Source: an uncultured Bacilli bacterium
Lineage (GTDB): Bacteria; Bacillota_I; Bacilli_A; RFN20; CAG-826
Reading direction: 5' to 3'
Assembly (NCBI GenBank): GCA_934162685.1
Contig: CAKPJO010000001.1
Coordinates: 30,602 to 94,601, forward strand
DNA length: 64,000 nucleotides
The notes under the pieces are model-generated. The model searched no databases. It was not told where the DNA came from and saw nothing but the letters and a program-made list of their open reading frames with translations. The translations under genes were made by a program, and so were the position numbers. Shown piece after piece: positions 1,357 through 14,583 of this stretch (position 1 is its first letter; each line of letters opens with the position of its first letter).

Positions 1357-1361
1357 ATTAT

Positions 1362-2393
1362 ATGGGAAACATGATTAAGAAGCCAATTCTCTATTCGTAT
1401 TCAAGATTAAACACATACGATAGTTGTGGTTGGAAATATAAATTAAATTATGTTGATAAGAAGTATATTAGTATTAATAATATTGCTAATTTATTAGGAA
1501 CATTAATTCACTCCGTTGAAGAAAACATTGCAATATGTTTACAACGTGGTGAACCTATTAATTATGAATATTGGAAAGAATATTTTATGAATGTTAATAT
1601 TCCTAAAAAAAGTGTGTATGATACAGATGGTGATATCTATGGTATTAATATTTTAAAAGAAAAATATCACGATGATTTCTATGCAATTAATGAAAAGACA
1701 GGACAATCTTATTTCACTAAGTGTATGGATTATTTGAATACAGGAATGTATCGTTTAGAAAAATACATGCAAGCACATCCAGAATTAGAAATATATGACG
1801 TTGAACATTATTTCGAAATTAATTTTCACGGATTAATTATTAAAGGGTATATTGATAGAATTTTTAGAAACAAAGAAACGGGTGAATATATCATAGAAGA
1901 TATTAAAACAAAAGATCATCCGTTTGATCAAAAAGATTTAACTACACCATTACAATTTGTTATTTATTCTATTGCATTACAAAAGCAATTAACTTTAAAT
2001 GATTATCCTACACATTGTACTTACGATTTACCATTATGTGATATGAAACAAGAAGCTGGAACAAAAGGTTTTATCGCAAGAGGAATTAAAAAATTAGATA
2101 AAATTATTGCAGGCATTAACGCAAATGAATTTGTGCCAAAACCATCTGCACTATGTTATTGGTGTCCGTTCTCAAAAACAAATCCTAATCAACCTGAAGA
2201 AGGTAAAGGATATTGTCCATATTATTCCTTATGGACTCGTAACGGAACCGCTAAATCATGGGACGTAGCGTTTAAATGGGAAGGCATGGATAATCATTTA
2301 GAAATAATGAAAAAATTTGAAGAAGCTGAAGATACTTTAGGCGGCAATAATAGCGCTGGAGGATCTTCCGATCCCTTCGATTTTGATTTTTAG
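1362..2393 (+). CDS. PD-(D/E)XK nuclease, Cas4/RecB-like, with a C-terminal Fe-S type Cys cluster
   Basis: Motifs GYIDRI...IEDIKT (D, E-x-K) and QFVIYSIAL; C-terminal CYWCPF...CPYY four-Cys cluster typical of Cas4/AddB nuclease domains. Confidence 0.6.
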   Translation: MGNMIKKPILYSYSRLNTYDSCGWKYKLNYVDKKYISINNIANLLGTLIHSVEENIAICLQRGEPINYEYWKEYFMNVNIPKKSVYDTDGDIYGINILKEKYHDDFYAINEKTGQSYFTKCMDYLNTGMYRLEKYMQAHPELEIYDVEHYFEINFHGLIIKGYIDRIFRNKETGEYIIEDIKTKDHPFDQKDLTTPLQFVIYSIALQKQLTLNDYPTHCTYDLPLCDMKQEAGTKGFIARGIKKLDKIIAGINANEFVPKPSALCYWCPFSKTNPNQPEEGKGYCPYYSLWTRNGTAKSWDVAFKWEGMDNHLEIMKKFEEAEDTLGGNNSAGGSSDPFDFDF

Positions 2394-2405
2394 GGGGTTA
2401 AAAAA

Positions 2406-2897
2406 ATGAAAACAAATAGTATTGAACTTTGTAAACTAGGTCTTGATTTTGATGCTTTACAAAATTGGAGAGATGCAGAGCACGACAATATTCCTATTAG
2501 TGGCTATCTTGCTTTTTATAAAGCGTGCGGTCTTATGCCTTATATTAAAGAAAACTTTTCTGAAGATGAAGCAAATCAAGTATGTCCTGTAAATAACATT
2601 TTATGTAATTTTACAACAATTAAAAAAATTAAAAATTTTATTGTAAATAATTGGGAAACATTTAATATTGATTTATTAGGTGATGAACAAATTGTTTGGA
2701 TAAAAGGCGAACGCAAAGAGCAACGCAAACGTCCTAAAAAAAGAAAATCTGAAATTAGACATAGTATAGATTTAGACTTTGCTAATTATTGTCCTGGCCT
2801 TGATGATGAATTAGAAGATGATGTTATTACATTGGTTAAATATGAAAAATTTGATGAAGTTATTGAAGCTACATCATTAGAAAAAGAAGGCAAATAG
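2406..2897 (+). CDS. hypothetical protein with a basic KRPKKRK stretch
   Basis: ORF with RBS, tightly packed after the nuclease gene. Confidence 0.5.
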   Translation: MKTNSIELCKLGLDFDALQNWRDAEHDNIPISGYLAFYKACGLMPYIKENFSEDEANQVCPVNNILCNFTTIKKIKNFIVNNWETFNIDLLGDEQIVWIKGERKEQRKRPKKRKSEIRHSIDLDFANYCPGLDDELEDDVITLVKYEKFDEVIEATSLEKEGK

Positions 2898-2899
2898 TT

Positions 2900-3421
2900 A
2901 TGGTAGAAGTAAAACATTATAAACATAATAAAGTTGCTCAATTCTTATATAATTATTGTTTAAAAGGAAGTAAATTCTTATATAAATATCCTGTTATTTA
3001 TTGGATATTACAATTTACTTGGGGTATCATCTATACTATCATTGGTTCTATTATTGGTTTCTTTGCTTGGATGATAGGCGGCGAAGGATCTTCTTTCCAT
3101 CGTGGATATGTTATTATGATAGGTGATAACTGGGGAGGATTAGAATTAGGTCTGGGTTGTCTCGTTGCTTATAATATGGGCGACGAATGGACTGACCATT
3201 GTAAAAAACACGAAATGGGGCATTGTTATCAAAACGCTTTATTAGGACCATTTGCAATATTTCTTGTAACTATTCCTAGTGCTATCAGATATTGGTATCA
3301 AAGAATTAGAACTAAAAAAGGATTACCTAATAAAGATTATGAAAGTATTTGGTTTGAAGGATGTGCCACTGAAATTGGTGAAACCTTATATGGTTATTTA
3401 AAAGAAGAAAAAACAAAATAG
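2900..3421 (+). CDS. membrane protein with an HExxH (HEMGH) motif, putative metalloprotease-like
   Basis: Several hydrophobic helices and HEMGH at the end of a predicted helix. Start overlaps the previous stop. Confidence 0.45.
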   Translation: MVEVKHYKHNKVAQFLYNYCLKGSKFLYKYPVIYWILQFTWGIIYTIIGSIIGFFAWMIGGEGSSFHRGYVIMIGDNWGGLELGLGCLVAYNMGDEWTDHCKKHEMGHCYQNALLGPFAIFLVTIPSAIRYWYQRIRTKKGLPNKDYESIWFEGCATEIGETLYGYLKEEKTK

Positions 3422-3554
3422 GATAAATTCAAAGCTTCTGCTTTGTATTTATATATTAAGTTGATGCGCGATGTTATGAATGATAGCATTGACGACATCA
3501 GATTATCGAAAGATAAGCAAGGAGATTGGACTTAGTGTCCTATATCACACTTGG

Positions 3555-3590
3555 AAAATAGCAGCTCAGAAGGTTGCTATTTTTTATTTC
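3555..3590 (+). terminator. intrinsic terminator (AATAGCA...TGCTATT plus T5)
   Basis: 7-bp stem hairpin followed by TTTTTT, downstream of the 2900..3421 gene. Confidence 0.5.
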
Positions 3591-3633
3591 AGTTGTCTAC
3601 AAATTGAAGTCAACTGAAAATATGAAAAATTAC

Positions 3634-3680
3634 TTGACAATGGGGAATATTTCTATATAATAAATATGTAAAAAGTACCC
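3634..3680 (+). promoter_or_regulatory. sigma-A type promoter P1 (TTGACA-16-TATAAT followed by AAATATGTAA)
   Basis: Near-consensus -35/-10; member of the repeated promoter family. Confidence 0.55.
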
Positions 3681-3720
3681 CAAATTACTTTTTTTGGTAA
3701 AAACGTTTTAGAAAAATACT

Positions 3721-6700
3721 TTGACCCCTGTTGGGGTGTGTTATAGAAAGGTGGAGATTTTAATGTATTGTAGTTTACATAATCATACAATGTATTCAAA
3801 TTTAAAATTATTAGATAGTATCAATAGAATTCCAGATATGATAAATAAAGCTATAGAATACGGTTTTAACGGTTTAGCTATCACGGACCATGAAATATTA
3901 TCAGGCCATGTTGAAGCTTTAGAATATGCTGATAAGATTAAAAAAGATCATCCTGATTTTAAAGTAATACTAGGGAATGAAATTTATTTAATTAAAGAAA
4001 AAGAATATAAACAACCAGAAACAAAATTCTGGCATTTCTTATTAATTGCAAAAGATTTAACAGGATACATGCAAATTCGTAAATTAAGTTCTAAAGCCTG
4101 GGATCGTATGTATGTATCTAAAGGACAAAAAAGAACTCCCACTTTTTATGAAGACTTTGAAGCAATAATTGGTAATGATAAAGGTCATATTATAATGTCA
4201 ACAGCCTGTTTAGGTTCATATTTAAACGATTGTTTTATTAGACACGATTTAGAAGAAATTAAATTTTATATAAATTGGATGGTTAAAACTGTTGGAAAAG
4301 AAAATGCTTTTTTAGAAATACAAGATAGTGACTCTATTGAACAACAAAATTATAATAAATTTATTTTAAAATTAGGAAAACAATTAAACTTAAAAGTAAT
4401 TGTAACTCAAGATGCTCATTATCTGAATAAAGAAGATTTACAAATTGAAAAAACCTTTTTAAACAGTAAACAAGAAGGAGATCGAGAGGTTGACGCTTTC
4501 TATAAATATACTTATATGAAACCAGAAAGTGAAATCAAACAAATTCTTTCTTATCTTCCTGTAGAAGATGTTCAACAAGCTATTGATAATACTCAAATAA
4601 TTTATCGAATGATACAACCATATGATATAAGAAAAGATACAATTATTCCACAAAGAAAACTTCCTTCCTTTCAATTAAAACATTTATTAAAAGAATGGTA
4701 TGAACAAGAAGAAAACATAAAAGCATTTGCTGAAAGTTTGTGGGACCAAGATAGATTTTTATTGCATTTAATTGAGCAAGGAATAGAAGAAAAAAATTTT
4801 AAAGTAACTAAATTAGAAGCAGATAGAATTAATACTGAACTTGGTGTTTTAAAATATATTACTGAAAGAGTGCATCAACCTATGAGTGCGTACTTAAATT
4901 TGGTGCAAGAAATTATTAATTTAATGTGGGAAGTATCGTTTATCGGCGTCAGCAGAGGATGTTTTACAGAAGATGCCCAAATTTTAATGGGAGACGGAAG
5001 TTATAAATCAATTAAAGATGTACAAGAAGGAGACTTAGTTTATACTCATTTAGGAAGAATAAAGAAAGTTTTACAAACTCATCAATATAACGTAAATGAA
5101 CGATTATATACAATCAAAGTGCGCGGACGTCCTGCATTTACTTGTACTAATAATCATCAAATATTTGGTAGCCATCAAGGTTCTTGTAAAGCACCTGGTT
5201 CTAAAAATGTTTATTGTTCAGGAAAGTGTAAAAGGTTCAGTACTTGTCCTTATGCCACTGGAGAAGCAATTCAAGCTCATTGGATTGAGGCACAAAATTT
5301 AAAAAAGGGAGATTTTGTTACAACTCCAAAATTTAATTTTGCAAATCCTACAAGTAATTTAATAGATTTAATGAAATATATCCCTGAATCTAGTGCCGTA
5401 GGAGAAAACCAATTTTATTATAAGCGTAAAGATGATCGTTATTGTTCTGGAATAGTGAAAAAATTTATAGCCAATCGCTATTCACAATGGACACCTGGTC
5501 TTGCTCGTCTTGTTGGTTATTTTATTGGAAATGGATGGACAAGAAAAAAAGATGATAAGTCAAATTCAATAATTCAGTTTGGCCTTGCCTTTCATAGTGA
5601 GGCAACAGAAAAAATTAATGATTGTGTTAATTTAATTGAAAACGAATTACATTTATCTTATAAAATCAGACCTTCTTCTCGTCGAAAGGTAGTACAAATT
5701 ATAGTAGGAAACAAGCCTTGGGCTAACTTTTTTGCGGCAGAGTGCGGAATAGGAAGTCATAATAAAAAAATTCCTTATAAAATCTTCACAGATTTAACAT
5801 TAGCTAAAGAATGCATGAGAGGGTTAATTCTCACTGATGGTAGTACAGATTTAAAAAGACGTCGTTTTAAATATAGCACAATTTCTCCTATGCTTCAAAA
5901 ACAAGTTTTTTATTTGCTTAATTTATTAAAATATAATTCTTTTATGAATGAATTTGATAAGAGGCAAGAAAATTGGGAGCCAGAAAGAACAAATTGTTTA
6001 TCAGGAACTCAACTTTTGAAATTTTGCGAAGAATTTAATTTAGGAACACCTATGACTTCACAACTTGCATATACTCGTCAAGATTTTGAAGAAGATGAAC
6101 AATATTATTATAATAAAATTGAAAATATAGAGACAAAAAACTTTCAAGGAATAGTTTACGATTTAACAGTAGAAGATGACACTTCTTATATTGTGAATGG
6201 GTGTGCTGTACATAATAGCGCAATGTCATTCTTAATTAATTATTTAATTGGAATTGTGCAAGTTAATCCAATTCCTTACGATGTTCCTTATTGGAGATTT
6301 ATGAATACTGCAAGTATTCCAACGTTAACGCCAGAAGAAATTAAAGCAGGTAAAAAACTTTCAATAGCGGCAACGATGCCTGATGTTGATATAGATATTA
6401 GTCCTACAAAAGCAAATGAGGTTATGGATATTATGAGACAACATTATGGAGAAGATAATATTCTTAATACACTAACTTATAAAAAAGAATCTTTAAAAGC
6501 TGCTTTAAATAGTTGCGGTAGAGGATTAGGATTATTACCCGAAGAAACTCATTATTTATCAAGTTTGGTTCCTACTTCTAGAGGTCACGTTTATTCTTTA
6601 CAAGAATGTGAAGAAGGTGACGAAGAAAAGGGCTTTGAAGCTCATCCAGAGGTAATTCAAGCTATTCAAAAATATCCTGGTTTATATGAGGCCGTTAAAA

Positions 6701-7479
6701 AGATAGAAGGTTTAATTTCAGGTTCTGGAATTCACGCTTCTGCCGTTTACTTCTTTCCTGATGGTTATATTAATTGTTGTTCTATGATGCGAGCCCCAAA
6801 CGGTACCCGTATAACAGGATTTGATTATAGAGCGGTTGATGCTTGTTCGGGATTAAAAATGGACTTTTTATATACCGATTGTCAAACTAAATTAATGAAA
6901 ACAATGGACTTATTATTAAAATATAATCAAATTAAATGGCAAGGTTCTTTAAGGGCTACTTATAATAAATATTTACATCCAGATGTATTAGATTATAATA
7001 ATCCTGAAATGTGGAAAAGAATGCAAGAAGGACAAATATCTAATTTGTTCCAATTTGATAGTTTACAAGGGGCCATTTGTATTAAAAGAACTCGTCCTGA
7101 GAATGTAAAACAATTAGGAGCAGCAAATGCTGTTATGAGATTAATGAGTTCTGATGGTGGAGAAACTCCATTAGATAGATATGTACGTTTCAGAAATGAT
7201 ATAAGCGAATGGTATAAAGAAATGGATGAATATGGTTTAACAAAACACGAGCAGTCTCTTCTTGAAAGATATTTATTACCTAAGTTTGGCAATTCTGTAG
7301 AACAAGAAGATATGATGCAAATTGTTCAAGATCCTGAAATTTCTAACTTTACATTAGGAGAAAGCAACAAGTTTCGTAAGGTGGTGTCCAAAAAGAAACT
7401 TAAAGAAATTGAAAAATATAAGAAATTATTCTTTGAAAAAAATAAAGATCCAGAGGTTTCAGAAGAACTAGATTTTTAG
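3721..7479 (+). CDS. dnaE: DNA polymerase III alpha (DnaE-like) N-terminal cistron containing an intein; PHP domain plus palm/fingers
   Basis: PHP motifs (HNHTMYS, ITDHE). Catalytic MPDVDIDIS aligns with DnaE MPDFDVDF. LKMDFL, NLFQFDS and MMQIVQ blocks match DnaE. Ends at the position where DnaE continues with ...KFAGYGFNKSHS. Confidence 0.8.
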   Translation: MTPVGVCYRKVEILMYCSLHNHTMYSNLKLLDSINRIPDMINKAIEYGFNGLAITDHEILSGHVEALEYADKIKKDHPDFKVILGNEIYLIKEKEYKQPETKFWHFLLIAKDLTGYMQIRKLSSKAWDRMYVSKGQKRTPTFYEDFEAIIGNDKGHIIMSTACLGSYLNDCFIRHDLEEIKFYINWMVKTVGKENAFLEIQDSDSIEQQNYNKFILKLGKQLNLKVIVTQDAHYLNKEDLQIEKTFLNSKQEGDREVDAFYKYTYMKPESEIKQILSYLPVEDVQQAIDNTQIIYRMIQPYDIRKDTIIPQRKLPSFQLKHLLKEWYEQEENIKAFAESLWDQDRFLLHLIEQGIEEKNFKVTKLEADRINTELGVLKYITERVHQPMSAYLNLVQEIINLMWEVSFIGVSRGCFTEDAQILMGDGSYKSIKDVQEGDLVYTHLGRIKKVLQTHQYNVNERLYTIKVRGRPAFTCTNNHQIFGSHQGSCKAPGSKNVYCSGKCKRFSTCPYATGEAIQAHWIEAQNLKKGDFVTTPKFNFANPTSNLIDLMKYIPESSAVGENQFYYKRKDDRYCSGIVKKFIANRYSQWTPGLARLVGYFIGNGWTRKKDDKSNSIIQFGLAFHSEATEKINDCVNLIENELHLSYKIRPSSRRKVVQIIVGNKPWANFFAAECGIGSHNKKIPYKIFTDLTLAKECMRGLILTDGSTDLKRRRFKYSTISPMLQKQVFYLLNLLKYNSFMNEFDKRQENWEPERTNCLSGTQLLKFCEEFNLGTPMTSQLAYTRQDFEEDEQYYYNKIENIETKNFQGIVYDLTVEDDTSYIVNGCAVHNSAMSFLINYLIGIVQVNPIPYDVPYWRFMNTASIPTLTPEEIKAGKKLSIAATMPDVDIDISPTKANEVMDIMRQHYGEDNILNTLTYKKESLKAALNSCGRGLGLLPEETHYLSSLVPTSRGHVYSLQECEEGDEEKGFEAHPEVIQAIQKYPGLYEAVKKIEGLISGSGIHASAVYFFPDGYINCCSMMRAPNGTRITGFDYRAVDACSGLKMDFLYTDCQTKLMKTMDLLLKYNQIKWQGSLRATYNKYLHPDVLDYNNPEMWKRMQEGQISNLFQFDSLQGAICIKRTRPENVKQLGAANAVMRLMSSDGGETPLDRYVRFRNDISEWYKEMDEYGLTKHEQSLLERYLLPKFGNSVEQEDMMQIVQDPEISNFTLGESNKFRKVVSKKKLKEIEKYKKLFFEKNKDPEVSEELDF
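4960..6216 (+). mobile_element. intein (419 aa) with a LAGLIDADG homing endonuclease domain, inserted in the GRGS palm motif of DnaE
   Basis: Starts CFTEDAQILMGDGS (block A) and ends VHN followed by S (+1). LAGLIDADG blocks LVGYFIGNGW and GLILTDGS. Flanking VSRG|...|SAMSFLINYLIG matches DnaE GRGS-AAGSLVAY. Confidence 0.8.
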
Positions 7480-7508
7480 AAGGGAAAATATTTCCTTCTT
7501 TTTTTATT
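7477..7508 (+). terminator. intrinsic terminator after dnaE part 1
   Basis: AGAAGGGAAAatatTTTCCTTCT hairpin plus T8; the T-run runs into the -35 TTGACT. Confidence 0.6.
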
Positions 7509-7550
7509 GACTTTTAAAAACATTTGTGTATAATAAATAGTGTAAAAAGA
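7507..7550 (+). promoter_or_regulatory. sigma-A type promoter P2 (TTGACT-18-TATAAT-AAATAGTGTAA)
   Basis: Consensus hexamers plus the conserved downstream box AAATAGTGTAA. Confidence 0.6.
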
Positions 7551-7563
7551 AAGGAACCAAATT

Positions 7564-7731
7564 ATGAAAACTATTAGAATATTTGTTACACTTAAACAAA
7601 ATGATATAATTAATATTCCTGATGACGCATCAGATAGTGAAATTGATGCAATAGTTGATAATTATGCTAGTGAGTTAGCAGAAAACGCGGGAATTCAAAA
7701 GTATGAAGTTGAGTGGCAAGAAGATTATTAA
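7564..7731 (+). CDS. small acidic hypothetical protein (55 aa)
   Basis: ATG with AAAGGA RBS immediately after P2. Below the ORF-track cutoff. Confidence 0.4.
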   Translation: MKTIRIFVTLKQNDIINIPDDASDSEIDAIVDNYASELAENAGIQKYEVEWQEDY

Positions 7732-7744
7732 GGAGAGTTAAATT

Positions 7745-7927
7745 ATGAGTTCATCAAAAAAATATATTATAAAAATATATTCAGAACAACCTTTAAATGG
7801 AGTTTGGAAAGGTTATATTAAAGTTGATATTGATGTAAAATGTTCTGAAGGAATTGAAAGAAAAACAAGAATATTCTCAAAAAATGAATGGGAAGAAATT
7901 AAAAAATTTGGATATTATTTAGGATAA
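7745..7927 (+). CDS. hypothetical protein
   Basis: RBS GGAGAG, compact array of early ORFs. Confidence 0.5.
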   Translation: MSSSKKYIIKIYSEQPLNGVWKGYIKVDIDVKCSEGIERKTRIFSKNEWEEIKKFGYYLG

Positions 7928-7944
7928 AGAAAGGAAACAACATT

Positions 7945-8316
7945 ATGAAAAAAGAAGAATTATTTAAAGCGGAAACATTTGATTATATTTGTAAACTAAT
8001 TAAAGAAAAATTAACAAAATCTATGAAAGGTAATAAACAAGTAAGTATTTTAGAAATCAAAGCATATAATTTATCAACAAAATCCAATGATTTTGAAAAA
8101 GAATTACAAATTAAATTTTCTATAAATCTAAATCCAGAAATTTTTTGTTCAATGGTATATATTGATGCTGTTTGGTACTATGATTTATTTGATGCAAAAG
8201 AATTTGCTTCAATTGTTGCGAGCAATGTTTTAAAAAAATCAGTTAAAAATATAAGCATTGCTGAAAAAGACAACGATAGTAATATATTTAGTGTTTATAC
8301 ACGAAATGATAAATAA
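7945..8316 (+). CDS. hypothetical protein
   Basis: RBS AAGGAAAC 8 nt upstream. Confidence 0.5.
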   Translation: MKKEELFKAETFDYICKLIKEKLTKSMKGNKQVSILEIKAYNLSTKSNDFEKELQIKFSINLNPEIFCSMVYIDAVWYYDLFDAKEFASIVASNVLKKSVKNISIAEKDNDSNIFSVYTRNDK

Positions 8317-8339
8317 ATAGAAAAACGAGGTTACATATT

Positions 8340-8546
8340 ATGAATAGAAAAAGTATATTATTAATTAGCTTAACAATTATTGCTATGCTAGGTATAGTTG
8401 TAGGAATTGCATTTATTTGTAGTAAATTCATCATCCGTCCATACAATACCATTGTTACTATGATTTTAAGTTATTTAACAGGATCTTGCGGGAACGCGGT
8501 TATTAATTATATTCTTGAGAAAGAAGGTTGTCAAAATGAAGAATAA
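8340..8546 (+). CDS. small membrane protein (paralog A)
   Basis: Two TM helices. Paralogous to 8515..8736 (SILLIxLTI...GNxVxNxIxxKEG). Confidence 0.5.
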   Translation: MNRKSILLISLTIIAMLGIVVGIAFICSKFIIRPYNTIVTMILSYLTGSCGNAVINYILEKEGCQNEE

Positions 8547-8736
8547 AAGAAGTATTTTATTGATTATCTTAACAATTGTAGTTATGTTTCTATTAGGAGC
8601 ATTAATTGTATGGGGAAGTTGTTCTATTCTTCTTTACCCTTGGAATGTTATATCAACTATGTGTTTAAGTCTTGTTGTTGGTTTAGCAGGTAATAGAGTG
8701 CTAAATATTATTATTGATAAAGAAGGGAAAAACTAA
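8515..8736 (+). CDS. small membrane protein (paralog B, tandem duplicate)
   Basis: Same architecture as 8340..8546; start overlaps the previous gene. Confidence 0.5.
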   Translation: MRKKVVKMKNKRSILLIILTIVVMFLLGALIVWGSCSILLYPWNVISTMCLSLVVGLAGNRVLNIIIDKEGKN

Positions 8737-8737
8737 A

Positions 8738-9010
8738 ATGATACATAAAAAGGAAAAAGAAGAAATTGAAAATTTGTTAGAAGATACCTTTGTTGGCAGT
8801 TCTGACGCATTAGAATGGTTATCTGAAAAAGGATTTGTTGAAGCTGACAAATGTTATTATTATTGCTATTCTGATAAAAATGGTAATTACATTGGTAATG
8901 ATAGTGATGATGATCCTTATGACATATTAGAAATACTTTTAAAAGATATTGATTATGATGAATTTATGACAAAATTTAATGAAGAATTCGGAGATGAAGA
9001 TAATGGATAA
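8738..9010 (+). CDS. acidic hypothetical protein
   Basis: ATG at 8738 with AAGGGA RBS. The ORF-track start 8714 is less likely. Confidence 0.45.
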   Translation: MIHKKEKEEIENLLEDTFVGSSDALEWLSEKGFVEADKCYYYCYSDKNGNYIGNDSDDDPYDILEILLKDIDYDEFMTKFNEEFGDEDNG

Positions 9011-9245
9011 TATAAATTGGAAAGAAAAATATATGGATGAACATATTAAAGTTCAAGATTTAGAGTCTAAAGTTGATGTTTATGAAAATATTACAATTCC
9101 TAGATTGAAAAAAGAAAAAATAAAAGTATTAAAAAAAGTTGTAAAGCAATTAAAAGAATGTACATCATTCTTTATGACGGTTGATGAATCCGATGTAGAT
9201 GATGTGATTGAATATTGTGAGAGTATTATAGAAAAGGGAGAATAA
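8979..9245 (+). CDS. hypothetical protein
   Basis: Overlaps the previous stop; the start may be the internal ATG at 9003. Confidence 0.4.
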   Translation: MKNSEMKIMDNINWKEKYMDEHIKVQDLESKVDVYENITIPRLKKEKIKVLKKVVKQLKECTSFFMTVDESDVDDVIEYCESIIEKGE

Positions 9246-9248
9246 ATT

Positions 9249-9422
9249 ATGAAAAATATTATAGTATATACAACAGTATATCATAAAAACTTTATTAAAG
9301 TTGAAGATGATGTTTATGAAGACGAAGATAAACTTCAAGAAAAAGCTAGAGAAATTGCTAATAAAATTGCAGGCAATAATGATTATGATTATGAATATGA
9401 ATTAGATGAAGAAGAAGAATAA
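9249..9422 (+). CDS. small acidic hypothetical protein (57 aa)
   Basis: RBS GGGAGAATAAATT-ATG. Below the ORF-track cutoff. Confidence 0.4.
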   Translation: MKNIIVYTTVYHKNFIKVEDDVYEDEDKLQEKAREIANKIAGNNDYDYEYELDEEEE

Positions 9423-9425
9423 GAG

Positions 9426-9620
9426 GTGATAGAAATGAACAAATGTGATTTTTGTAATTACTATGACCCATTTCAAAATAAATGTGGCTGTGCTTATTCT
9501 CCTAAAAATTGTACAGAAGCTATTAAAGCTTACTCACAAGTATTAATGAGTCAAAACAAGAATACTAAAACTAAAAACGTTAATATTAATAAAAACAATA
9601 ATAAAACGAAAGGAAAATAG
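9426..9620 (+). CDS. small Cys-rich protein (CDFCNYY...CGC...C)
   Basis: RBS GAGGTG; Cys cluster suggests metal binding. Confidence 0.45.
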   Translation: MIEMNKCDFCNYYDPFQNKCGCAYSPKNCTEAIKAYSQVLMSQNKNTKTKNVNINKNNNKTKGK

Positions 9621-9622
9621 TC

Positions 9623-10183
9623 ATGAGTAAAATAAAAATTGATCAATATACAAAAATGTTATTAGATGACATCATTTTACAAAGTAAGAAAGATGACGAT
9701 CCTGTTAAAAGCTTTTGTTTAGAATTTGTGTTTTATAATCAAGAAGAATGCTGGATTACTACAACCTATCAAAGTGGAAAAATAGACGAGGAAAAATATT
9801 TGGACAAGACTATGAACCAATTGGCTCTAGATCAATGTCCACTCGAAGGAAATCATATTGTTCTTCCAGCTGATTATGAGAGTGTTATCGATCCAAACAT
9901 TGTTGAAAATTTTCCAGGCTGGTCGAAAACGTATACGTTAGATTTAAGTAATATAGGAATTTTAACTGATAAAGAAAAAGAATATTTAAAAGCTGTAATT
10001 GAACCATATAGATTACTGGTCTCAGATATAAGTAAAATAGTTGGTTGGAATCATGATCCAGAACAAATTTTTGTTTATTTAGATTGTGGAGATCCAATTA
10101 CCTTTCCAATCATTTTACCAGAATTAAAATTTTCAGGAATGGAATTAAATAAGAATTATACTTTAGAAGATTTAGGAATATAA
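9623..10183 (+). CDS. hypothetical protein
   Basis: Coupled start (ATAGTCATG). Confidence 0.5.
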   Translation: MSKIKIDQYTKMLLDDIILQSKKDDDPVKSFCLEFVFYNQEECWITTTYQSGKIDEEKYLDKTMNQLALDQCPLEGNHIVLPADYESVIDPNIVENFPGWSKTYTLDLSNIGILTDKEKEYLKAVIEPYRLLVSDISKIVGWNHDPEQIFVYLDCGDPITFPIILPELKFSGMELNKNYTLEDLGI

Positions 10184-10196
10184 AGGAGAAAAGAAA

Positions 10197-11081
10197 ATGA
10201 AAATTAGTAATAAAACTTATAATGTATGTAGTCACTTTATACATTTATTTGAATCATTTGATTATAAAATAGGAAGTATTATTCTACGTAGGAATGAAGA
10301 CAGAGAAACAAATTTTTATGAAATTAGTTTATCTTTTTCGGGCAAAGATAATTCTAATAAACAATTTCAAACATCTGTATCAATGATTGATGAGGAAATG
10401 CATACAATATTATGTAAAAGGAGCAGAGACTTTTTGATATGTGATGATGTAAAAAGTTTACGTTTTCATTTTAATAATGTCCCATCTTTGTCTGATATTG
10501 AGAAGTATCTTTTAACACAGCTCTTTAATTATTATCATATAACAGAGGGAACGATTATGAAAAAAAGTAATCATCTTATCATTAAAACTAAAAATCCTTT
10601 TGAAGGAATAGAAACTGACATTGAAATAAATTTGTCTTTAAAGCCATTAAAAGACAATAATTTTAAAGAGCTGGAAGAAGAATATGAATATTTTATTGAG
10701 GATTTAGATTTAGGAGAAGATACAAGAAAAGCAGCATTGTTAAATCAAACGTTGTCAGCGTGCGATTGTATTTATCAAAATGGAAGAGTTCTCTATAAAG
10801 GCAATTTTAAAATTTCATTTAGTGAATTTTTAGATAAAGATAATGTTTTTATTCATTGTAAAACAAGAGATGACTTTGATTTCCTTATGGATAAATTAAT
10901 GGAAGCAACTCCTGGTAATATATTCTATAATGTTAATAAAGGCATCGAGGGTGTTTGGTATGATTATGGTGAAGATAGCTGTGTTAAAAATGATGGAACA
11001 GGGATGAAATACGAATATTGCAAAGCTTCAAAAAACAATTATGCTATTTATGAATTTGACGAATTAGATTTTAGTAAATAA
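10197..11081 (+). CDS. hypothetical protein with a C-terminal (A)IHCxT...YEFDELDF domain (family member 1)
   Basis: RBS AAGGAG. C-terminal ~90 aa is similar to 11098, 11395 and the 25823 C-terminus. Confidence 0.55.
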   Translation: MKISNKTYNVCSHFIHLFESFDYKIGSIILRRNEDRETNFYEISLSFSGKDNSNKQFQTSVSMIDEEMHTILCKRSRDFLICDDVKSLRFHFNNVPSLSDIEKYLLTQLFNYYHITEGTIMKKSNHLIIKTKNPFEGIETDIEINLSLKPLKDNNFKELEEEYEYFIEDLDLGEDTRKAALLNQTLSACDCIYQNGRVLYKGNFKISFSEFLDKDNVFIHCKTRDDFDFLMDKLMEATPGNIFYNVNKGIEGVWYDYGEDSCVKNDGTGMKYEYCKASKNNYAIYEFDELDFSK

Positions 11082-11097
11082 TAAGGGCAATAAAAAT

Positions 11098-11379
11098 ATG
11101 AAAATTAAATTAACTGAATTTTGGAATAGTAAAGAAAATCTTGCTATTCATTGCAATACGAAAGAAAAAGCAAATGAATTATTAAAAGCTTTTGATAGGC
11201 TTGGTAAGAAATGGAGTAATGGTATGAGTTATTTGGATGTTGATTATTATACTCTTGATTATGGTCTTTACTATAGGAACACTTGTTATTCAAATCATAA
11301 TAAATTTCATGGATATTCAAATTATAAATCACATGACTATACAATTTATGAATTCGAAGATGTTGATTTAAAAAATTAA
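11098..11379 (+). CDS. small protein of the AIHC(D/N)T...YEF(D/E)DVDL family (member 2)
   Basis: LAIHCNTKEKANELL...LGKKWSNG...TCY...IYEFEDVDL. Confidence 0.55.
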   Translation: MKIKLTEFWNSKENLAIHCNTKEKANELLKAFDRLGKKWSNGMSYLDVDYYTLDYGLYYRNTCYSNHNKFHGYSNYKSHDYTIYEFEDVDLKN

Positions 11380-11394
11380 GAAGGAAAAATCAAA

Positions 11395-11691
11395 ATGGAA
11401 AAATTAAATTCTAAAAAGAAAATTACATTAACAAAATTTTTAGACGATTATGATAGAGATTTGGCTATTCACTGTGATACTGAAATACAGGCAAGAATAT
11501 TACAAAAAACAATTCGTAAATCGCTCAAAAAAAGATGGAATATTAAAATATCTGATCAAAAAGATACTTTTTGTAGATGTTATAAACGAGACACCTGCTA
11601 TGACAATGATAATTGCTGTGGATCTCGTGATTGGTACGAAACGATGGGTTATTTAATCTACGAATTTGATGAAGTTGATTTAGATAAATAA
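11395..11691 (+). CDS. small protein of the AIHCDT...YEFDEVDL family (member 3)
   Basis: LAIHCDTEIQARIL...KKRWN...TCY...IYEFDEVDL. Confidence 0.55.
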   Translation: MEKLNSKKKITLTKFLDDYDRDLAIHCDTEIQARILQKTIRKSLKKRWNIKISDQKDTFCRCYKRDTCYDNDNCCGSRDWYETMGYLIYEFDEVDLDK

Positions 11692-11747
11692 AAGACCTCT
11701 TTTATTTAGTGGAACTTGTGCGTAAAAAGCATAAGTTCTTTTTTTAC

Positions 11748-11790
11748 TTGACATTTACAAATATTTATATATAATTTAAGTAAGTAAGAA
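11748..11790 (+). promoter_or_regulatory. sigma-A type promoter P3 (TTGACA-16-TATAAT)
   Basis: Consensus hexamers upstream of the 11804 ORF, homing endonuclease and dnaE part 2 cassette. Confidence 0.55.
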
Positions 11791-11803
11791 AGGGTGATAT
11801 CAA

Positions 11804-12025
11804 ATGAAAAAGATTATTATTATTTGTAACGACAAAGTTATTTCAGAACACGAAACATCAGATGTATATTATGATGCAATGATGAAAGAATGTGAAAGAC
11901 AACTAAATGAAGGAACTCTAGATAGTAGAGTGTTTGAGTTCAATGAAAAAGAACAAGCTAAAATCACTAAATATATAGTGAACAATCTCATATATAAATT
12001 AATAGATAAGAAAGAAGTTGAATAG
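11804..12025 (+). CDS. hypothetical protein
   Basis: RBS AAAGGGTG. Confidence 0.45.
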   Translation: MKKIIIICNDKVISEHETSDVYYDAMMKECERQLNEGTLDSRVFEFNEKEQAKITKYIVNNLIYKLIDKKEVE

Positions 12026-13031
12026 AATGAATTTTGAAAATAGAGAATATAATAAACCTTCGCAAATTGAATATGAAGGTACTTTAACTAAAAATAGGAA
12101 TCAAAGGCCTACTTGTGACCAAAAGTTTTTAGACTGGTGTGTGGCTAATGCAGAACGTTTTAGCTCTTATTATACTATGGCTAAAGCATTAGGACTTGAT
12201 GGCAGGGCTTTTCAACGTTTAATAGAAGATTATAACATTACATTAACATTTGATAGTAAAGCTGCTCATACTCCTAAATTATATCAAGATTATGACTGGT
12301 TATATAATCAAATTGTTACTTTAAATAAGTCTCGTAAGCAAGTAGCTGAAGAAAATGGCTGGACAGTTAGAGTTTTAGAAAAATGGATGGGCATTTTAGG
12401 AATTAATAGAAGAACATACCAAGATTTAAAACAAATGTCTGATAAGCAAAGAGATTTAATTAAATTCTCATTATTAGGTGACGGATGTGTTTCTGATACA
12501 GGATTTTTTATTGTGTCTCATAGTGAAAAGCAAAAAGATTATTTATATTGGAAATATGAAATGTTGAAAGATCTTTGCTCGCATGAACCGACACGATATG
12601 ATGAGAGTGTTAAAATAATTAACGGAAAAGAAGTTAATTGCGAACCATATTATAGATTTAATACTAGAAAATTAAAGGAATTGTTTAATCTTAGAGAAAT
12701 GCCAATAGAACAAATTGTTAATGATTTAGATGAATTTGGTTTGTCAATTTGGATGTTGGACGATGCTAGCCGAGATGCTTCTTGGAAGTTATGTATAGCC
12801 GCTTATCCTGAAGAAACTAGAACATTTATTGTAAATTATTTTAAGGATAAAGGTTTTTTATCTGCTAAAGTAAGGCTATATGATACAAGATATGTGGAAT
12901 TTAATGCTGACGACAGTAGAAAAATAGATGCTATAATTTTGCGTAACATTCCTCACAATTTAGACATTATACAATATAAAATTATAAATAATAGTAGAAT
13001 TAAATCACCAAGGAGGGGAAATAATGGCTAG
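12018..13031 (+). CDS. free-standing LAGLIDADG homing endonuclease with an N-terminal DNA-binding region
   Basis: Two LAGLIDADG-type motifs (LLGDGCVSD, WMLDDASRD). Located exactly at the junction that splits dnaE; overlaps both neighbours. Confidence 0.7.
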   Translation: MNRMNFENREYNKPSQIEYEGTLTKNRNQRPTCDQKFLDWCVANAERFSSYYTMAKALGLDGRAFQRLIEDYNITLTFDSKAAHTPKLYQDYDWLYNQIVTLNKSRKQVAEENGWTVRVLEKWMGILGINRRTYQDLKQMSDKQRDLIKFSLLGDGCVSDTGFFIVSHSEKQKDYLYWKYEMLKDLCSHEPTRYDESVKIINGKEVNCEPYYRFNTRKLKELFNLREMPIEQIVNDLDEFGLSIWMLDDASRDASWKLCIAAYPEETRTFIVNYFKDKGFLSAKVRLYDTRYVEFNADDSRKIDAIILRNIPHNLDIIQYKIINNSRIKSPRRGNNG

Positions 13032-14583
13032 GCGTCTTTTCCTAGATTATGTCTGGGGAAAATGCATTCAACCACAAGTAGGATACGCCTTTTCTTTGCC
13101 GCACGATATTAGTTATTCTATAGAAGCCGTCCAAGAAGCTAATTTAGCAACAAGATATAACCCTCTTTTTTGGGAATGTGCTTGCCTTTGTATCAACGCA
13201 GGAAATACGGAAACAGGATTTGAAGAAGACGATGATGAAGAGCAAGACGAGGAAGAAAAGAAAACTAAATCAGGAGCACCATCATATGGTAAAATTTCAA
13301 AAGCTTTAACCGATTGTAGGCTTCACGGTGTAAATATTGAATTTCCAAACATTAATACATCTCAAGCAGATTTCGTTCCTGATATTGAAAATAATAGTAT
13401 TTTATATAGTTTAAAGACTGTTACAAATGTGAGCGATGATTTATATTCACAAATCATTCAGAATAGACCTTATTCATCAATAGAAGATTTCTGTTCTAAA
13501 GTATCTGTTACACCAGCACAAATGTCCAGTTTAATTAAAGCTGGTTGCTTCAATTCTTTATATAAGATGTCAAGACGAGCAATTCTCTATGCTTATTTCA
13601 ATTATTTAGCAAATCAAGAAATAATCCTTAAAAAAACATTGAACTTATCTCATTTAAAGAAAGCTTTGTCTCTTGGTGAGAAATTTCCAGGTTATGAAGA
13701 TAAAATTCAATTATTATATTTTAAAGTATACATTGATAAAAATCAAAAATTAGATCCTAGTAAAGAGGCATTCTCACTTAATGCTTTATTAAATAAGAAA
13801 TGTTATAAACTCACGGAAGAATCTTGCATCAGCTTTTTCAATATGAAAGTTGCGCCTTCATTAGATTTAAGAAAAGGTGATTATGATTATTTAGATGGAC
13901 ACACAATATTATTAAAAGCATCAAGCTTTACAAAATTCTATGATGCTCAAATGAAAGAATTAACTGATTATCTAAATTCTGAACAAGGTAAATTAGTATT
14001 TCAAAAAATGGAAAAAGATGCTTTTATAAAAGATCTTATTGAAAAATACGCAGAAGGAACCGAAGCTGACTGGGATATGCAAACAATGAATTTTTATCAA
14101 TCTGAACACGCACTTGCTAGAATGTCCGAAATAAAGTATAACATTAAGAATTTTAATAAATTACCAGAAACGCCTATAACACGTAAGTATATAGGTAAAG
14201 ACGGAGAAGAAAAAGAGACAGCTGAAACTTGTGCAATATGTGGTACAGTTGTAGATGCTAATAATGTTAAACACGTGGTAAGTTTATTAACTAAGTATGG
14301 AGTGGTTAATGTTAAATTATTCTCACAAGCATATTCTAATTTTAGTCAAAAGATAAGTATTGTTGAAGATGCCGCCAAAAAGAAGAAAACAGTTTTAGAC
14401 GACTCTTGGTTTAAAAGAGGAACGAAATTAATTATTCACGGGTTCAGAAGAGAAAATATGTTTGTTGCTAAAACTGAATATGTTAATAAAGTTCCTAAAA
14501 TGGTAGGATTAATAGAAAGTTTAGATACAAACGGAAATGCTTCTATTAGATACACAAGAAAGAAGAAAATTAGTCAAGAATAA
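13024..14583 (+). CDS. dnaE: DNA polymerase III alpha (DnaE-like) C-terminal cistron; fingers/HhH/beta-binding region
   Basis: [32 protein letters not shown] aligns with DnaE [46 protein letters not shown] aligns with GLKILPPDINSG. Continues the alignment where 3721..7479 stops. Confidence 0.75.
   Translation: [519 protein letters not shown]

What the first reader, a model, noticed from the sequence alone, without database searches (positions are those of the whole stretch)
4960..6216. Intein with LAGLIDADG endonuclease and a Cys-rich insertion, inserted in the GRGS palm motif of DnaE
The intein starts with Cys after VSRG and ends HN before Ser; the flanks reconstitute the DnaE motif GRGS-AAGSLVAY just upstream of the catalytic DxD. 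It carries both LAGLIDADG blocks. It also has an unusual Cys-rich segment (CTNNHQIFGSHQGSCKAPGSKNVYCSGKCKRFSTCPY) inside the N-terminal splicing domain, suggesting a zinc-binding insertion. The same gene is hit by a second, independent selfish element (the free-standing endonuclease at 12018).
Basis: partly seen in the sequence, partly recalled or inferred. Interest (0 to 1): 0.55.

Follow-up and report, generated by a model that had tools for sequence, protein, structure and literature searches.

The report
Mobile intein with a four-cysteine loop
A self-splicing, self-copying protein insert (an intein with a homing endonuclease) sits in a gut Clostridia phage's DNA polymerase. It carries a small four-cysteine loop, probably zinc-binding, that many related inteins share but that I found in no solved intein structure matched here and in no paper searched.

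Summary
Window 4960-6216 (+) encodes a 419-aa class-1 intein: Cys1, TNNH block B, VYDL block F, His-Asn end, Ser+1. It holds a nested two-motif LAGLIDADG endonuclease.

The host is a phage YorL-type DnaE, interrupted at VSRG|SAMSFLINYL. This is a diverged GPGRG|SAAGSLVAY motif, 55 residues before the catalytic DVDID. Pfam, an AlphaFold model (pLDDT 90.9) and Foldseek hits to TliVMA, PI-PkoII and PI-SceI all agree.

The intein appears mobile. Twelve relatives have an empty site with the same protein sequence. A phage whose N-extein is 97% identical carries a 63%-identical intein, with synonymous divergence 1.17 against 0.31 in the flank.

The Cys-rich segment is real but not peculiar to this intein. 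C76-x9-C86-x3-C90-x5-C96 lies between block B and the next Hint strand, where PI-SceI has its DNA-recognition region. Among 59 related inteins, 41 have 4-5 Cys there, 13 have none and only 5 have 1-3. The four Cys are the only invariant loop positions, and the core is basic.

A same-lineage mini-intein has lost the endonuclease and this loop together. I read the loop as a Zn(Cys)4 knuckle that probably assists DNA targeting; this is inferred, not shown. LAGLIDADG motif 1 has Asn where an acid is expected.

The parts
3763..4959 (+). N-extein: PHP domain and start of the palm of the phage YorL-type DnaE, ending ...EVSFIGVSRG
   Evidence: Pfam PHP 88.5 bits. It is 42% identical to SPbeta YorL residues 5-431. 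It is 97% identical to P0001.
4960..6216 (+). Intein, 419 aa, class 1 (Cys1 ... His-Asn | Ser+1) with a nested LAGLIDADG homing endonuclease
   Evidence: Pfam Intein_splicing and LAGLIDADG_3 above cut-off. AF2 pLDDT 90.9, pTM 0.90. Foldseek: TliVMA intein 6e-21, PI-PkoII, PI-SceI, PI-PfuI. It is absent from YorL and from 12 relatives.
5146..5157 (+). Block B (N3) T63-N-N-H66 of the splicing domain
   Evidence: Read directly from the sequence. T and H are at least 90% conserved in the alignments. It aligns to PI-SceI NATH (His79).
5158..5280 (+). 41-residue loop between block B His66 and N4 Trp108. It holds the Cys4 core C76-x9-C86-x3-C90-x5-C96 (5185-5247) and is a probable Zn(Cys)4 knuckle
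   Evidence: The four Cys are the only invariant loop columns in 35 sequences. The Cys count is all-or-none: 41 of 59 have 4-5, 13 have 0 and 5 have 1-3. Mean net charge of the core is +3.5. pLDDT is 78-86 and the loop is mostly coil. It occupies the same topological site as the 77-residue PI-SceI DRR.
5485..6039 (+). LAGLIDADG endonuclease domain (about residues 176-360). Motif 1 LARLVGYFIGNGW is at 5500-5538 (Asn191 at 5530-5532). Motif 2 CMRGLILTDGS is at 5812-5844 (Asp293 at 5836-5838)
   Evidence: PI-PkoII phmmer 7e-12 over residues 165-324. Foldseek to I-DmoI about 1e-8. Motif-1 position across relatives: E 29, N 17, D 11, Q 2. Motif-2 Asp is present in 59 of 59.
6145..6216 (+). C-terminal splicing blocks F and G: GIVYDLTVEDDTSYIVNGCAVHN
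   Evidence: NCBIfam intein_Cterm 25.8 bits (cut-off 15.6). Read directly from the sequence.
6217..7479 (+). C-extein of the first DnaE cistron: SAMSFLINYL..., catalytic PDVDID at 6382-6396, rest of the palm, and the fingers
   Evidence: Pfam DNA_pol3_alpha 106.5 bits and DNA_pol3_finger 68.5 bits. 37% identical to YorL residues 427-829.
7480..12017 (+). Inserted cassette of small ORFs with no family match, lying between the two DnaE cistrons. It has its own terminator/promoter pairs (7478-7499 with 7507-7534, and 11711-11739 with 11748-11775)
   Evidence: It is absent from L005-L015, where the cistrons are 4 nt apart.
12018..13031 (+). Free-standing LAGLIDADG_2 homing endonuclease gene; its end overlaps the start of the second DnaE cistron
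   Evidence: Pfam LAGLIDADG_2 54 bits. A different LAGLIDADG_3 endonuclease ORF occupies the same junction in L016/L017.
13024..14583 (+). Second DnaE cistron (HhH and C-terminal region), starting MARRLFLDYVWG
   Evidence: Pfam HHH_6 62 bits. 33% identical to YorL residues 829-1302, directly continuing the first cistron.

Best explanation
Window 4960-6216 is a class-1 intein with a nested LAGLIDADG homing endonuclease. It sits in the conserved GxGRG|S palm motif of the first cistron of a YorL-type DnaE replicative polymerase, in a roughly 140-kb phage of gut Clostridia.

Inferred from intact motifs: after translation, Cys1, T63/H66, D401, H418/N419 and Ser+1 carry out the standard four-step splicing. 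This joins ...VSRG to SAMSFLINYL... and yields an active polymerase.

Inferred from population patterns: at the DNA level, the endonuclease cuts or nicks intein-less alleles of co-infecting relatives at the same, protein-conserved site. Repair then copies the intein in.

Inferred: the 41-residue loop after block B carries four invariant cysteines and most likely folds around one zinc ion into a small basic knuckle. It projects from the Hint domain at the point where PI-SceI carries its DNA-recognition region. Its most likely role is an accessory DNA-contact module for the endonuclease, not a part of the splicing chemistry.
For: Intein identity.
- Boundaries and motifs are exact.
- Pfam and NCBIfam models match.
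- The AF2 model has pLDDT 90.9, with Foldseek E 6e-21 to 1e-16 against four solved endonuclease-bearing inteins.
- The exhaustive HMMER search found 4617 hits. About 25 of the top hits are full-length inteins at the same GPGRG|S(A/G)AGS site.
- The spliced extein aligns as one piece to YorL.

Mobility.
- The site is empty, with identical VGVSRG|SAMSFLINYL, in most of the 12 closest intein-less loci, L005-L015 and L021.
- Intein and extein histories disagree. Against P0001, the N-extein is 97% identical and the intein 63%. Against P0004, the extein is 79-83% and the intein 62%. Yet the P0001 and P0004 inteins are 91% alike.
- Nucleotide identity drops from about 95% to 55-70% soon after the intein start at 4960.
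- dS is 1.17 in the intein against 0.31 in the flank, and intein dN/dS is 0.27.

Cys loop.
- The four Cys are the only invariant positions in 35 sequences.
- Cys occurrence is all-or-none.
- The core is basic, mean +3.5.
- Inteins carrying it occur in DnaE, ClpB-like AAA+, glycosyltransferase and IMPDH hosts.
- Other inteins carry different Cys/His motifs at the same loop, such as CACGCG...GH and CxxC...YCSKxC.
- The loop is anchored by the same H...W landmarks as the PI-SceI DRR. [quoted passage not shown]
- The 164-aa mini-intein P0046 belongs to the same lineage and site and keeps all splicing motifs. It has lost the endonuclease and the Cys4 loop together.
Against: - No metal, splicing or cleavage assay exists.
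- No model coordinates were available, so neither Cys-Cys geometry nor the loop's position relative to the DNA-binding saddle could be checked.
- The spacing C-x9-C-x3-C-x5-C matches no Pfam zinc-finger family.
- The isolated loop model found no structural analogue.
- Coupling of the loop to the endonuclease rests on one close mini-intein (P0046) and one distant one (P0002).
- Asn191 replaces the motif-1 catalytic acid. The enzyme may therefore be a nickase or inactive, although Asn recurs in 17 of 59 relatives.
Confidence: 0.55

Rival explanations
1. The Cys4 loop is a structural brace needed for folding of the Hint domain and hence for splicing. It may bind zinc or form two disulfides, and it has no role in DNA recognition.
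For: The loop begins 10 residues after the catalytic block B His and returns into the N4 strand. A metal site there could rigidify the active-site strands. Invariant, all-or-none cysteines fit any structural metal site.
Against: 13 of 59 close relatives have no Cys in the loop. The same-lineage mini-intein P0046 keeps every splicing motif in an essential polymerase gene without the Cys cluster. The Hint fold therefore does not need it. Stable disulfides are unlikely in a cytoplasmic phage protein of an anaerobe (general knowledge).
Confidence: 0.2
2. The Cys4 loop is a redox or metal sensor that makes splicing conditional. Maturation of the phage polymerase would then depend on the state of the host cell.
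For: Redox- and zinc-responsive splicing is documented for other inteins, for example the mycobacterial DnaB intein as an oxidative stress sensor (PMC6195587, abstract listed). The loop is next to block B in sequence, and the host gene is the replicative polymerase.
Against: The same loop occurs in inteins of unrelated hosts, including ClpB-like, glycosyltransferase and IMPDH proteins. This argues against a host-gene-specific regulatory role. The loop is lost together with the endonuclease in P0046. No Cys of the loop is positioned, by sequence, to pair with Cys1 or Ser+1.
Confidence: 0.1
3. The endonuclease is dead because Asn191 replaces a catalytic acid. The intein would be a vertically inherited remnant, and the Cys loop a leftover.
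For: Motif 1 reads GNG instead of GDG/GEG. From memory, not checked here, acid-to-amide changes at this position abolish double-strand cleavage in I-CreI and PI-SceI.
Against: Asn is shared by 17 of 59 relatives that are only about 30% identical, and the motif-2 Asp is invariant in 59 of 59. Intein dN/dS is 0.27. A different intein allele sits in a 97%-identical extein, with four-fold higher dS. That requires recent horizontal replacement.
Confidence: 0.12
4. The four cysteines bind an iron-sulfur cluster rather than zinc.
For: Four invariant Cys within about 21 residues, in a protein made in anaerobic Clostridia.
Against: The spacing is variable (x6-12, x3, x3-9) and resembles no standard Fe-S motif. 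The loop is short, mostly coil and solvent-exposed in the model.
Confidence: 0.05

Closest known systems
PI-SceI (yeast VMA1 intein; PDB 1VDE, 1LWS)
   Same: It is a Hint domain with a nested two-motif LAGLIDADG endonuclease (Foldseek E about 1e-18). It shares the block B and N4 landmarks: FTCNATH...EWTIEARDL against FTCTNNH...HWIEAQNL. It also has an extra module inserted between them. In PI-SceI this module is the DNA-recognition region, with a demonstrated DNA-binding role (PMC8966425).
   Different: The PI-SceI insert is 77 residues with no cysteine cluster. Here it is 41 residues built around four invariant Cys. The host protein, insertion site and kingdom all differ. PI-SceI has Asp in both LAGLIDADG motifs (its motif 1, LLGLWIGDGL, is seen); here motif 1 has Asn.
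PI-PkoII / PI-TkoII and the TliVMA intein (PDB 2CW7, 7QSU/7QSS)
   Same: These are the closest solved relatives by sequence (PI-PkoII 7e-12, or 2.6e-36 with the profile) and by fold (TliVMA 6e-21, TMt 0.76).
   Different: Their accessory domains lie between the endonuclease and the C-terminal Hint part (PMC8966425), not after block B. No reported best match of a solved chain runs through the Cys loop; best N-terminal matches stop at profile positions 57-70.
Known DnaE inteins (cyanobacterial split Ssp/Npu DnaE; Thermus and Trichodesmium DnaE inteins)
   Same: They are inteins in the catalytic subunit of a C-family replicative polymerase.
   Different: From memory, the split cyanobacterial intein sits at a different site (…AEY|CFN…) and has no endonuclease. 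I could not check which catalogued DnaE site, if any, equals GPGRG|S. In the metagenomic collection this site is commonly occupied (about 25 of the top 59 full-length hits). None of the 29 tblastn matches among 50,697 GenBank phage records lay in a DnaE-type polymerase, and none exceeded 24% identity over most of the intein.
Yeast HO endonuclease
   Same: It is an intein-derived LAGLIDADG endonuclease that uses a zinc-finger module. [quoted passage not shown]
   Different: In HO the zinc finger is a C-terminal fusion and the protein no longer splices. Here the Cys cluster is inside the Hint domain of an apparently functional intein.
Homing-endonuclease-split phage genes (T4-type split nrdA or gene 43, from memory)
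   Same: A free-standing homing endonuclease gene lies between two cistrons of one enzyme (12018-13031, between the DnaE halves).
   Different: Here the two-cistron state also exists without any endonuclease in relatives. The junction also holds a 4.5-kb cassette of unrelated small ORFs.

Membership tests
Intein (class 1) | N-terminal Cys/Ser nucleophile, and a C-terminal His-Asn followed by a Cys/Ser/Thr +1 residue | tested here: met
   Cys1 at 4960-4962, His418-Asn419 ending at 6216, Ser+1 at 6217-6219.
Intein (class 1) | Block B TxxH and block F/G motifs of the Hint fold | tested here: met
   T63-N-N-H66 and VYDLTVEDDTSYIVNGCAVHN are present. Pfam Intein_splicing 49.1 bits against 35.8, and NCBIfam intein_Cterm 25.8 against 15.6, both pass. 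intein_Nterm (20.3 vs 24.5) and Hom_end_hint (31.1 vs 32.1) fall just below.
Intein (class 1) | Hint fold | tested here: met
   AF2 pLDDT 90.9. Foldseek to TliVMA, PI-PkoII, PI-SceI and PI-PfuI inteins at E 6e-21 to 4e-16.
Intein (class 1) | The insert interrupts a conserved host motif, and removing it restores a colinear host protein | tested here: met
   The spliced sequence aligns in one piece to YorL. The junction VSRG|SAMSFLINYL matches AARG|SAAGYLVNYL. Relatives with an empty site show the same junction.
Intein (class 1) | Protein splicing actually occurs | not testable with these tools
   This needs expression of a precursor and detection of the ligated exteins.
LAGLIDADG homing endonuclease (monomeric, two-motif) | Two LAGLIDADG helices within an alpha-beta-beta-alpha-beta-beta-alpha pair | tested here: met
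   The motifs are at residues 181-193 and 285-295. Pfam LAGLIDADG_3 33.1 bits against 22.5. Foldseek to I-DmoI about 1e-8, TMt 0.74. The secondary-structure pattern agrees.
LAGLIDADG homing endonuclease (monomeric, two-motif) | An acidic metal-binding residue at the end of each motif | tested here: not met
   Motif 2 has Asp293, invariant in 59 of 59. Motif 1 has Asn191. Relatives there show E 29, N 17, D 11, Q 2. The protein has the fold and one canonical site; double-strand cleavage is therefore not assured.
LAGLIDADG homing endonuclease (monomeric, two-motif) | Site-specific cleavage of the intein-less allele (homing) | tested here: inconclusive
   Only indirect evidence exists: empty and occupied sites among relatives, intein/extein incongruence and the dS contrast. 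No enzymology was possible.
Zinc finger / zinc knuckle | Four conserved metal ligands (Cys/His) within a short segment | tested here: met
   C76, C86, C90 and C96 are invariant in 35 sequences. Occurrence is all-or-none.
Zinc finger / zinc knuckle | Match to a described zinc-finger family or fold | tested here: not met
   The Pfam scan of the loop gave only zf-CCCH_RBM22 at E 0.063 and 13.8 bits against a cut-off of 53. Foldseek with the isolated loop model found nothing below E 5.
Zinc finger / zinc knuckle | Bound zinc with tetrahedral geometry | not testable with these tools
   Model coordinates are not exposed, and no metal analysis is possible.
C-family DNA polymerase (DnaE / YorL type), host gene | PHP, palm (pol3_alpha), fingers and HhH domains in order, with the catalytic DxD | tested here: met
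   Pfam PHP, DNA_pol3_alpha and DNA_pol3_finger match in cistron 1, and HHH_6 in cistron 2. The protein is 33-42% identical to YorL over its whole length. NCBIfam TIGR00594 gives 285 bits, below its 434 cut-off, as expected for a split, intein-bearing, divergent phage enzyme.

The most novel reading that the evidence does not exclude
The loop between block B and N4 of the Hint domain may be a general docking point where endonuclease-bearing inteins carry interchangeable small zinc modules. At least three architectures are seen here: C-x9-C-x3-C-x5-C, CACGCG...GH, and CxxC...YCSKxC. These modules would extend or retarget DNA recognition by the nested LAGLIDADG enzyme. That would make them a previously unrecognised, widespread class of intein accessory domain, and swapping them would help inteins colonise new host genes.
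Probability: 0.3. Interest if true: 0.6.

Novelty: new variant of a known kind. Interest (0 to 1): 0.45.

Why it matters
The intein itself is an ordinary kind of selfish element. It is still a clean natural example of intein turnover in a phage population, with empty sites, two divergent alleles in near-identical exteins, and a mini-intein derivative.

The four-cysteine loop is the part worth following. It is conserved in about two thirds of the nearest 106 endonuclease-bearing inteins, across several host proteins. It occupies the position of the PI-SceI DNA-recognition region. I found it in no solved intein structure matched here and in no paper I could search.

If it is a zinc-dependent DNA-contact module, it adds a compact element to the known set of intein accessory domains. 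That bears on how inteins choose and change target sites, and on engineering intein-based meganucleases. If it controls splicing instead, it would link zinc or redox state to maturation of a phage replicative polymerase.

Tried and rejected
- **Intron between the DnaE halves.** I asked whether the 5.5-kb gap between the DnaE halves is a group I or II intron. Rfam at gathering thresholds found nothing in the whole window, and ARAGORN found no tRNA. Relatives have two adjacent cistrons with their own stop and start codons. The intron reading is rejected.
- **Close DNA relatives.** Megablast of the gene against GenBank phages found no match.
- **Word-indexed protein search.** With the intein it gave only 3 hits. 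With the loop alignment A3 it gave none, so that search was wasted.
- **Genome scans.** The intein alone found nothing in genome contigs and one near-identical fragment in metagenome contigs.
- **Isolated loop.** Its AF2 model (pLDDT 81.5) had no meaningful Foldseek match in PDB. The Pfam scan of the loop was negative.
- **GenBank phage inteins.** The two checked, Staphylococcus phage 6ec DNA polymerase and Enterococcus phage vB_Efa29212_3e, have no Cys cluster in this loop. 6ec has a long Lys-rich insert there instead.
- **Literature.** Six searches on inteins with zinc, cysteine-rich, zinc-ribbon and DnaE-site terms found no description of the loop and no naming of this DnaE site. The library lacks most subscription journals, so prior description cannot be excluded.
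- **Endonuclease-loop association.** A statistical test was not possible, because only one mini-intein was in the retrievable top-150 hits.
Full report
**Observation.** ORF 3721/3763-7479 (+) contains, in frame, a 1257-nt segment at 4960-6216. It begins with TGT (Cys) directly after ...VSRG. It ends CAT AAT (His-Asn) directly before AGC (Ser).

The 419-aa product passes Pfam Intein_splicing (49.1 bits, cut-off 35.8) and LAGLIDADG_3 (33.1 bits, cut-off 22.5). It also passes NCBIfam intein_Cterm. The N-terminal Hint models fall just below their cut-offs. All class-1 landmarks are present:
- Cys1.
- Block B T63-N-N-H66.
- Block F VYDL.
- Block G VHN, followed by Ser+1.

**Structure.** I built a 31-sequence alignment of relatives taken from the exhaustive HMMER search. 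The AlphaFold model from it is confident (pLDDT 90.9, pTM 0.90). Its best PDB matches are the four solved families of endonuclease-bearing inteins:
- TliVMA, E 6e-21.
- PI-PkoII.
- PI-SceI.
- PI-PfuI.

The endonuclease part alone also matches I-DmoI. Predicted viral structures give the same picture.

**Host gene and site.** Neighbouring genes are a phage replication module of primase, exonuclease, RecD-like helicase and RNA ligase. The host protein has PHP, pol3_alpha and finger domains.

After removal of the insert it aligns as one piece, at 40% identity, to Bacillus phage SPbeta YorL and to Geobacillus phage GR1 polymerase. The junction VSRG|SAMSFLINYL corresponds to YorL AARG|SAAGYLVNYL. 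This is the GPGRG|SAAGSLVAY motif of DnaE in diverged form. The catalytic PDVDID follows 55 residues later, at 6382-6396. No polymerase residues truly map inside the insert. The few YorL letters that MAFFT scattered in the gap belong to the segment just before the junction.

**How common is this site?** The exhaustive profile search of 1.84 billion representatives gave 4617 hits. Among the 59 full-length intein matches in the top 150, about 25 are in DnaE homologues at this same site. Some have the canonical flanks, for example GPGRG|SAAGSLVAY in P0009. The site is therefore a frequently used intein site in metagenomic, mostly phage-like, polymerases.

By contrast, a tblastn search of 50,697 GenBank phage records returned only 29 matching records. 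None of the matches lay in a DnaE-type polymerase, and none exceeded 24% identity over most of the intein.

**Evidence that the intein moves.** Twelve relatives with 62-65% identical exteins have an uninterrupted site. These are 11 IMG/VR loci (L005-L015) and L021, a contig from a Clostridia MAG. In most of them the protein sequence across the site is identical to the window. L022, a contig binned as Clostridium sp. CAG:343, has a 34%-identical intein at the site.

The most telling comparison is within the window's own lineage:
- P0001 has an N-extein 97.2% identical to the window, but an intein only 63% identical.
- P0004 has exteins 79-83% identical and an intein 62% identical.
- The P0001 and P0004 inteins are 91% identical to each other.

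Nucleotide identity between the window and the P0001 contig is about 95% up to 4976 and then falls to 55-70%. Synonymous divergence is 0.31 in the extein and 1.17 in the intein. Intein dN/dS is 0.27. The intein therefore has a different history from its flanks, and it is under purifying selection. This is what homing and allele replacement predict, and it argues against a decaying remnant.

One small detail: both occupied alleles that I could read use AGC for Ser+1, while all empty alleles use TCN. That is consistent with co-conversion of the flank.

**The endonuclease.** Both motifs are present, but they are not equivalent. Motif 2 (LILTDGS) keeps Asp293, which is invariant in 59 of 59 relatives. 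Motif 1 (YFIGNGW) has Asn191 where the metal-binding acid is expected.

Across relatives that position is E in 29, N in 17, D in 11 and Q in 2. Among the same-site DnaE inteins, 14 of 27 have Asn. Conservation of Asn across sequences only about 30% identical argues that it is a tolerated functional state. It may give an asymmetric, possibly nicking, enzyme, but this is inference.

**The cysteine-rich segment.** The quoted stretch starts inside block B. The relevant feature is the 41-residue loop between His66 (block B) and Trp108 (motif N4: HWIEAQNLKKGD). Its core is C76-x9-C86-x3-C90-x5-C96. The evidence on this loop is as follows.
- In 35 relatives that are 18-73% identical over this region, the four Cys are the only invariant loop columns.
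- Among the 59 full-length relatives, the number of Cys in this loop is 4-5 in 41, zero in 13 and 1-3 in only 5. The core has a mean net charge of +3.5.
- Among 106 endonuclease-bearing intein copies in the top 150 hits, 72 have at least four Cys here.
- These inteins sit in DnaE, ClpB-like AAA+ proteins, glycosyltransferases and IMPDH/GMP reductase.
- Other inteins carry different Cys/His motifs at the same point, such as CACGCG...GH and CxxC...YCSKxC.
- The model shows the loop as mostly coil with pLDDT 78-86.
- No reported best match of a solved intein runs through the loop. Best N-terminal matches to the family profile stop at positions 57-70, that is at block B.
- No Pfam family and no PDB fold matched the isolated loop.
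- Six literature searches found no description of it.

**What the loop most likely does.** All-or-none, invariant cysteines in a short coil of a cytoplasmic protein are the signature of a structural metal site. Zinc is the most likely metal.

The location is informative. I confirmed the PI-SceI sequence against PDB and aligned it with the window intein. The same landmarks appear in both: FTCNATH79 ... FEW157TIEARDL against FTCTNNH66 ... AHW108IEAQNL. In PI-SceI they bracket a 77-residue segment. That segment is the DNA-recognition region. [quoted passage not shown]

A natural deletion points the same way. P0046 is a 164-aa mini-intein of the same lineage at the same site, with flanks EVSFVGVSRG|SAGSFYINYL. 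It keeps all the splicing motifs. It has lost the endonuclease, and its loop has shrunk to 26 residues with a single Cys. The more distant mini-intein P0002 also lacks the cluster.

So the cluster is not required by the Hint fold, and it tracks the endonuclease. My preferred reading is a basic Zn(Cys)4 knuckle that adds DNA contacts for the endonuclease. I put zinc binding at about 0.6 and the DNA role at about 0.35-0.4. The rivals are a pure folding brace, a redox or metal switch on splicing, and an Fe-S site. They are less well supported, for the reasons given under each.

**The second selfish element and the split polymerase.** The polymerase is encoded in two cistrons, 3763-7479 and 13024-14583, which abut precisely on YorL. 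Intein-less relatives already have two cistrons only 4 nt apart, so the split predates the insertion seen here.

In the window the junction holds a 5.5-kb block, made up of:
- a terminator/promoter pair at 7478-7534;
- about a dozen small ORFs with no family match;
- a second terminator and a perfect promoter at 11711-11775;
- a LAGLIDADG_2 endonuclease gene at 12018-13031, which overlaps the start of cistron 2.

A different LAGLIDADG_3 endonuclease occupies the same junction in L016/L017.

The commonest variant of this roughly 142-kb phage (L023-L026) has cistron 2 at 94% identity to the window and the helicase at 98%. Its cistron 1, however, is only 42-50% identical. It carries yet another same-site intein, 38% identical, again with C-x9-C-x3-C-x5-C and GNG. 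Its junction cassette is different and includes a ResIII helicase. The junction is therefore a mosaic boundary.

**Verdict.** The intein is real, exactly placed, and a new member of a well-known kind. The Cys4 loop is real, conserved and widespread. I found it in no solved intein structure matched here and in no paper I could search. It is a modest but genuine new variant of intein architecture whose function remains to be tested.

Noticed in passing
window 3763-7479 and 13024-14583; L005 11100-11280: The DnaE polymerase is encoded as two cistrons that abut exactly on single-gene YorL. In intein-less relatives the two cistrons are only 4 nt apart (stop at 11192-11194, ATG at 11199). The split is therefore ancestral in this phage clade and was not caused by the endonuclease now present.
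   Followed up: partly
window 7480-13031: A 5.5-kb cassette lies between the DnaE cistrons. It has a terminator at 7478-7499 and a promoter at 7507-7534, then about 12 small ORFs with no Pfam match. A second terminator at 11711-11739 and a perfect TTGACA-16-TATAAT promoter at 11748-11775 follow. Last come a 73-aa ORF and a LAGLIDADG_2 endonuclease gene that overlaps the start of cistron 2.
   Followed up: partly
L023-L026 (ENA/Logan contigs of about 142 kb), locus coordinates 1-11557: The commonest variant of this phage shows a mosaic boundary at the start of cistron 2. Its DnaE cistron 2 is 94% identical to the window and its helicase 98%, but cistron 1 is only 42-50% identical. It carries a different same-site intein (38% identical, same Cys spacing, GNG motif 1). 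Its 6.8-kb junction cassette differs from the window's, has a 791-aa ResIII/Helicase_C gene and has no endonuclease.
   Followed up: partly
L016 11465-12463 (and L017): A different free-standing endonuclease (LAGLIDADG_3 plus HTH_38, 332 aa) sits in the same junction between the DnaE cistrons of a distant relative. The junction is therefore a recurrent endonuclease landing site.
   Followed up: partly
window 5530-5532 (Asn191 of the intein): LAGLIDADG motif 1 has Asn instead of the catalytic Asp/Glu, while the motif-2 Asp is invariant. The same Asn occurs in 17 of 59 related inteins, and in 14 of 27 at this DnaE site. This suggests a conserved asymmetric, possibly nicking, active site.
   Followed up: partly
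window 6217-6219; L022; L005-L016, L021 at the insertion site: The Ser+1 codon is AGC in both occupied alleles that could be read (window and L022), but TCN in all 13 empty alleles. This is consistent with co-conversion of flanking extein sequence during homing.
   Followed up: no
proteins P0016, P0029, P0034, P0037, P0043, P0059, P0062, P0065, P0081, P0096, P0153: Other endonuclease-bearing inteins carry different Cys/His-rich motifs in the same loop after block B. Examples are CACGCG...(K/T)GH and CxxCG...(H/F)YC(S/T)K(E/A)C, the second resembling FCS/YacG-type fingers (from memory). Several metal-binding architectures appear to have been inserted independently at one point of the Hint fold.
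   Followed up: no
P0002 (724 aa, residues about 520-545 of the protein): A 246-aa intein without a LAGLIDADG domain, at the canonical GPGRG|SAAGSLVSY site, has a Cys/His-rich stretch (DACTHSHKGHEDCLNCFGKK). The stretch sits where the endonuclease is normally nested, not in the block B loop.
   Followed up: no
window 10197-11081 (C-terminal part), 11098-11379, 11395-11691: Three consecutive cassette ORFs share a domain: ...(A/F)IHC(N/D/K)T... near the start, and a (A/T/L)IYEF(D/E)(E/D)(L/V)D(F/L) ending. They are tandem paralogues of unknown function.
   Followed up: no
L011 12846-16100; L012 12710-14510: In L011 the RecD-like helicase homologue matches in two pieces separated by about 870 nt, so it may hold another intervening element. 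In L012 about 1.6 kb of extra DNA lies between DnaE cistron 2 and the helicase.
   Followed up: no
L001 2154-2940: The ENA contig that encodes P0001 stops matching the window at 2153 and continues with unrelated, GC-richer sequence carrying an HTH_5 gene. It is probably a chimeric assembly, which is why the P0001 intein is truncated.
   Followed up: partly
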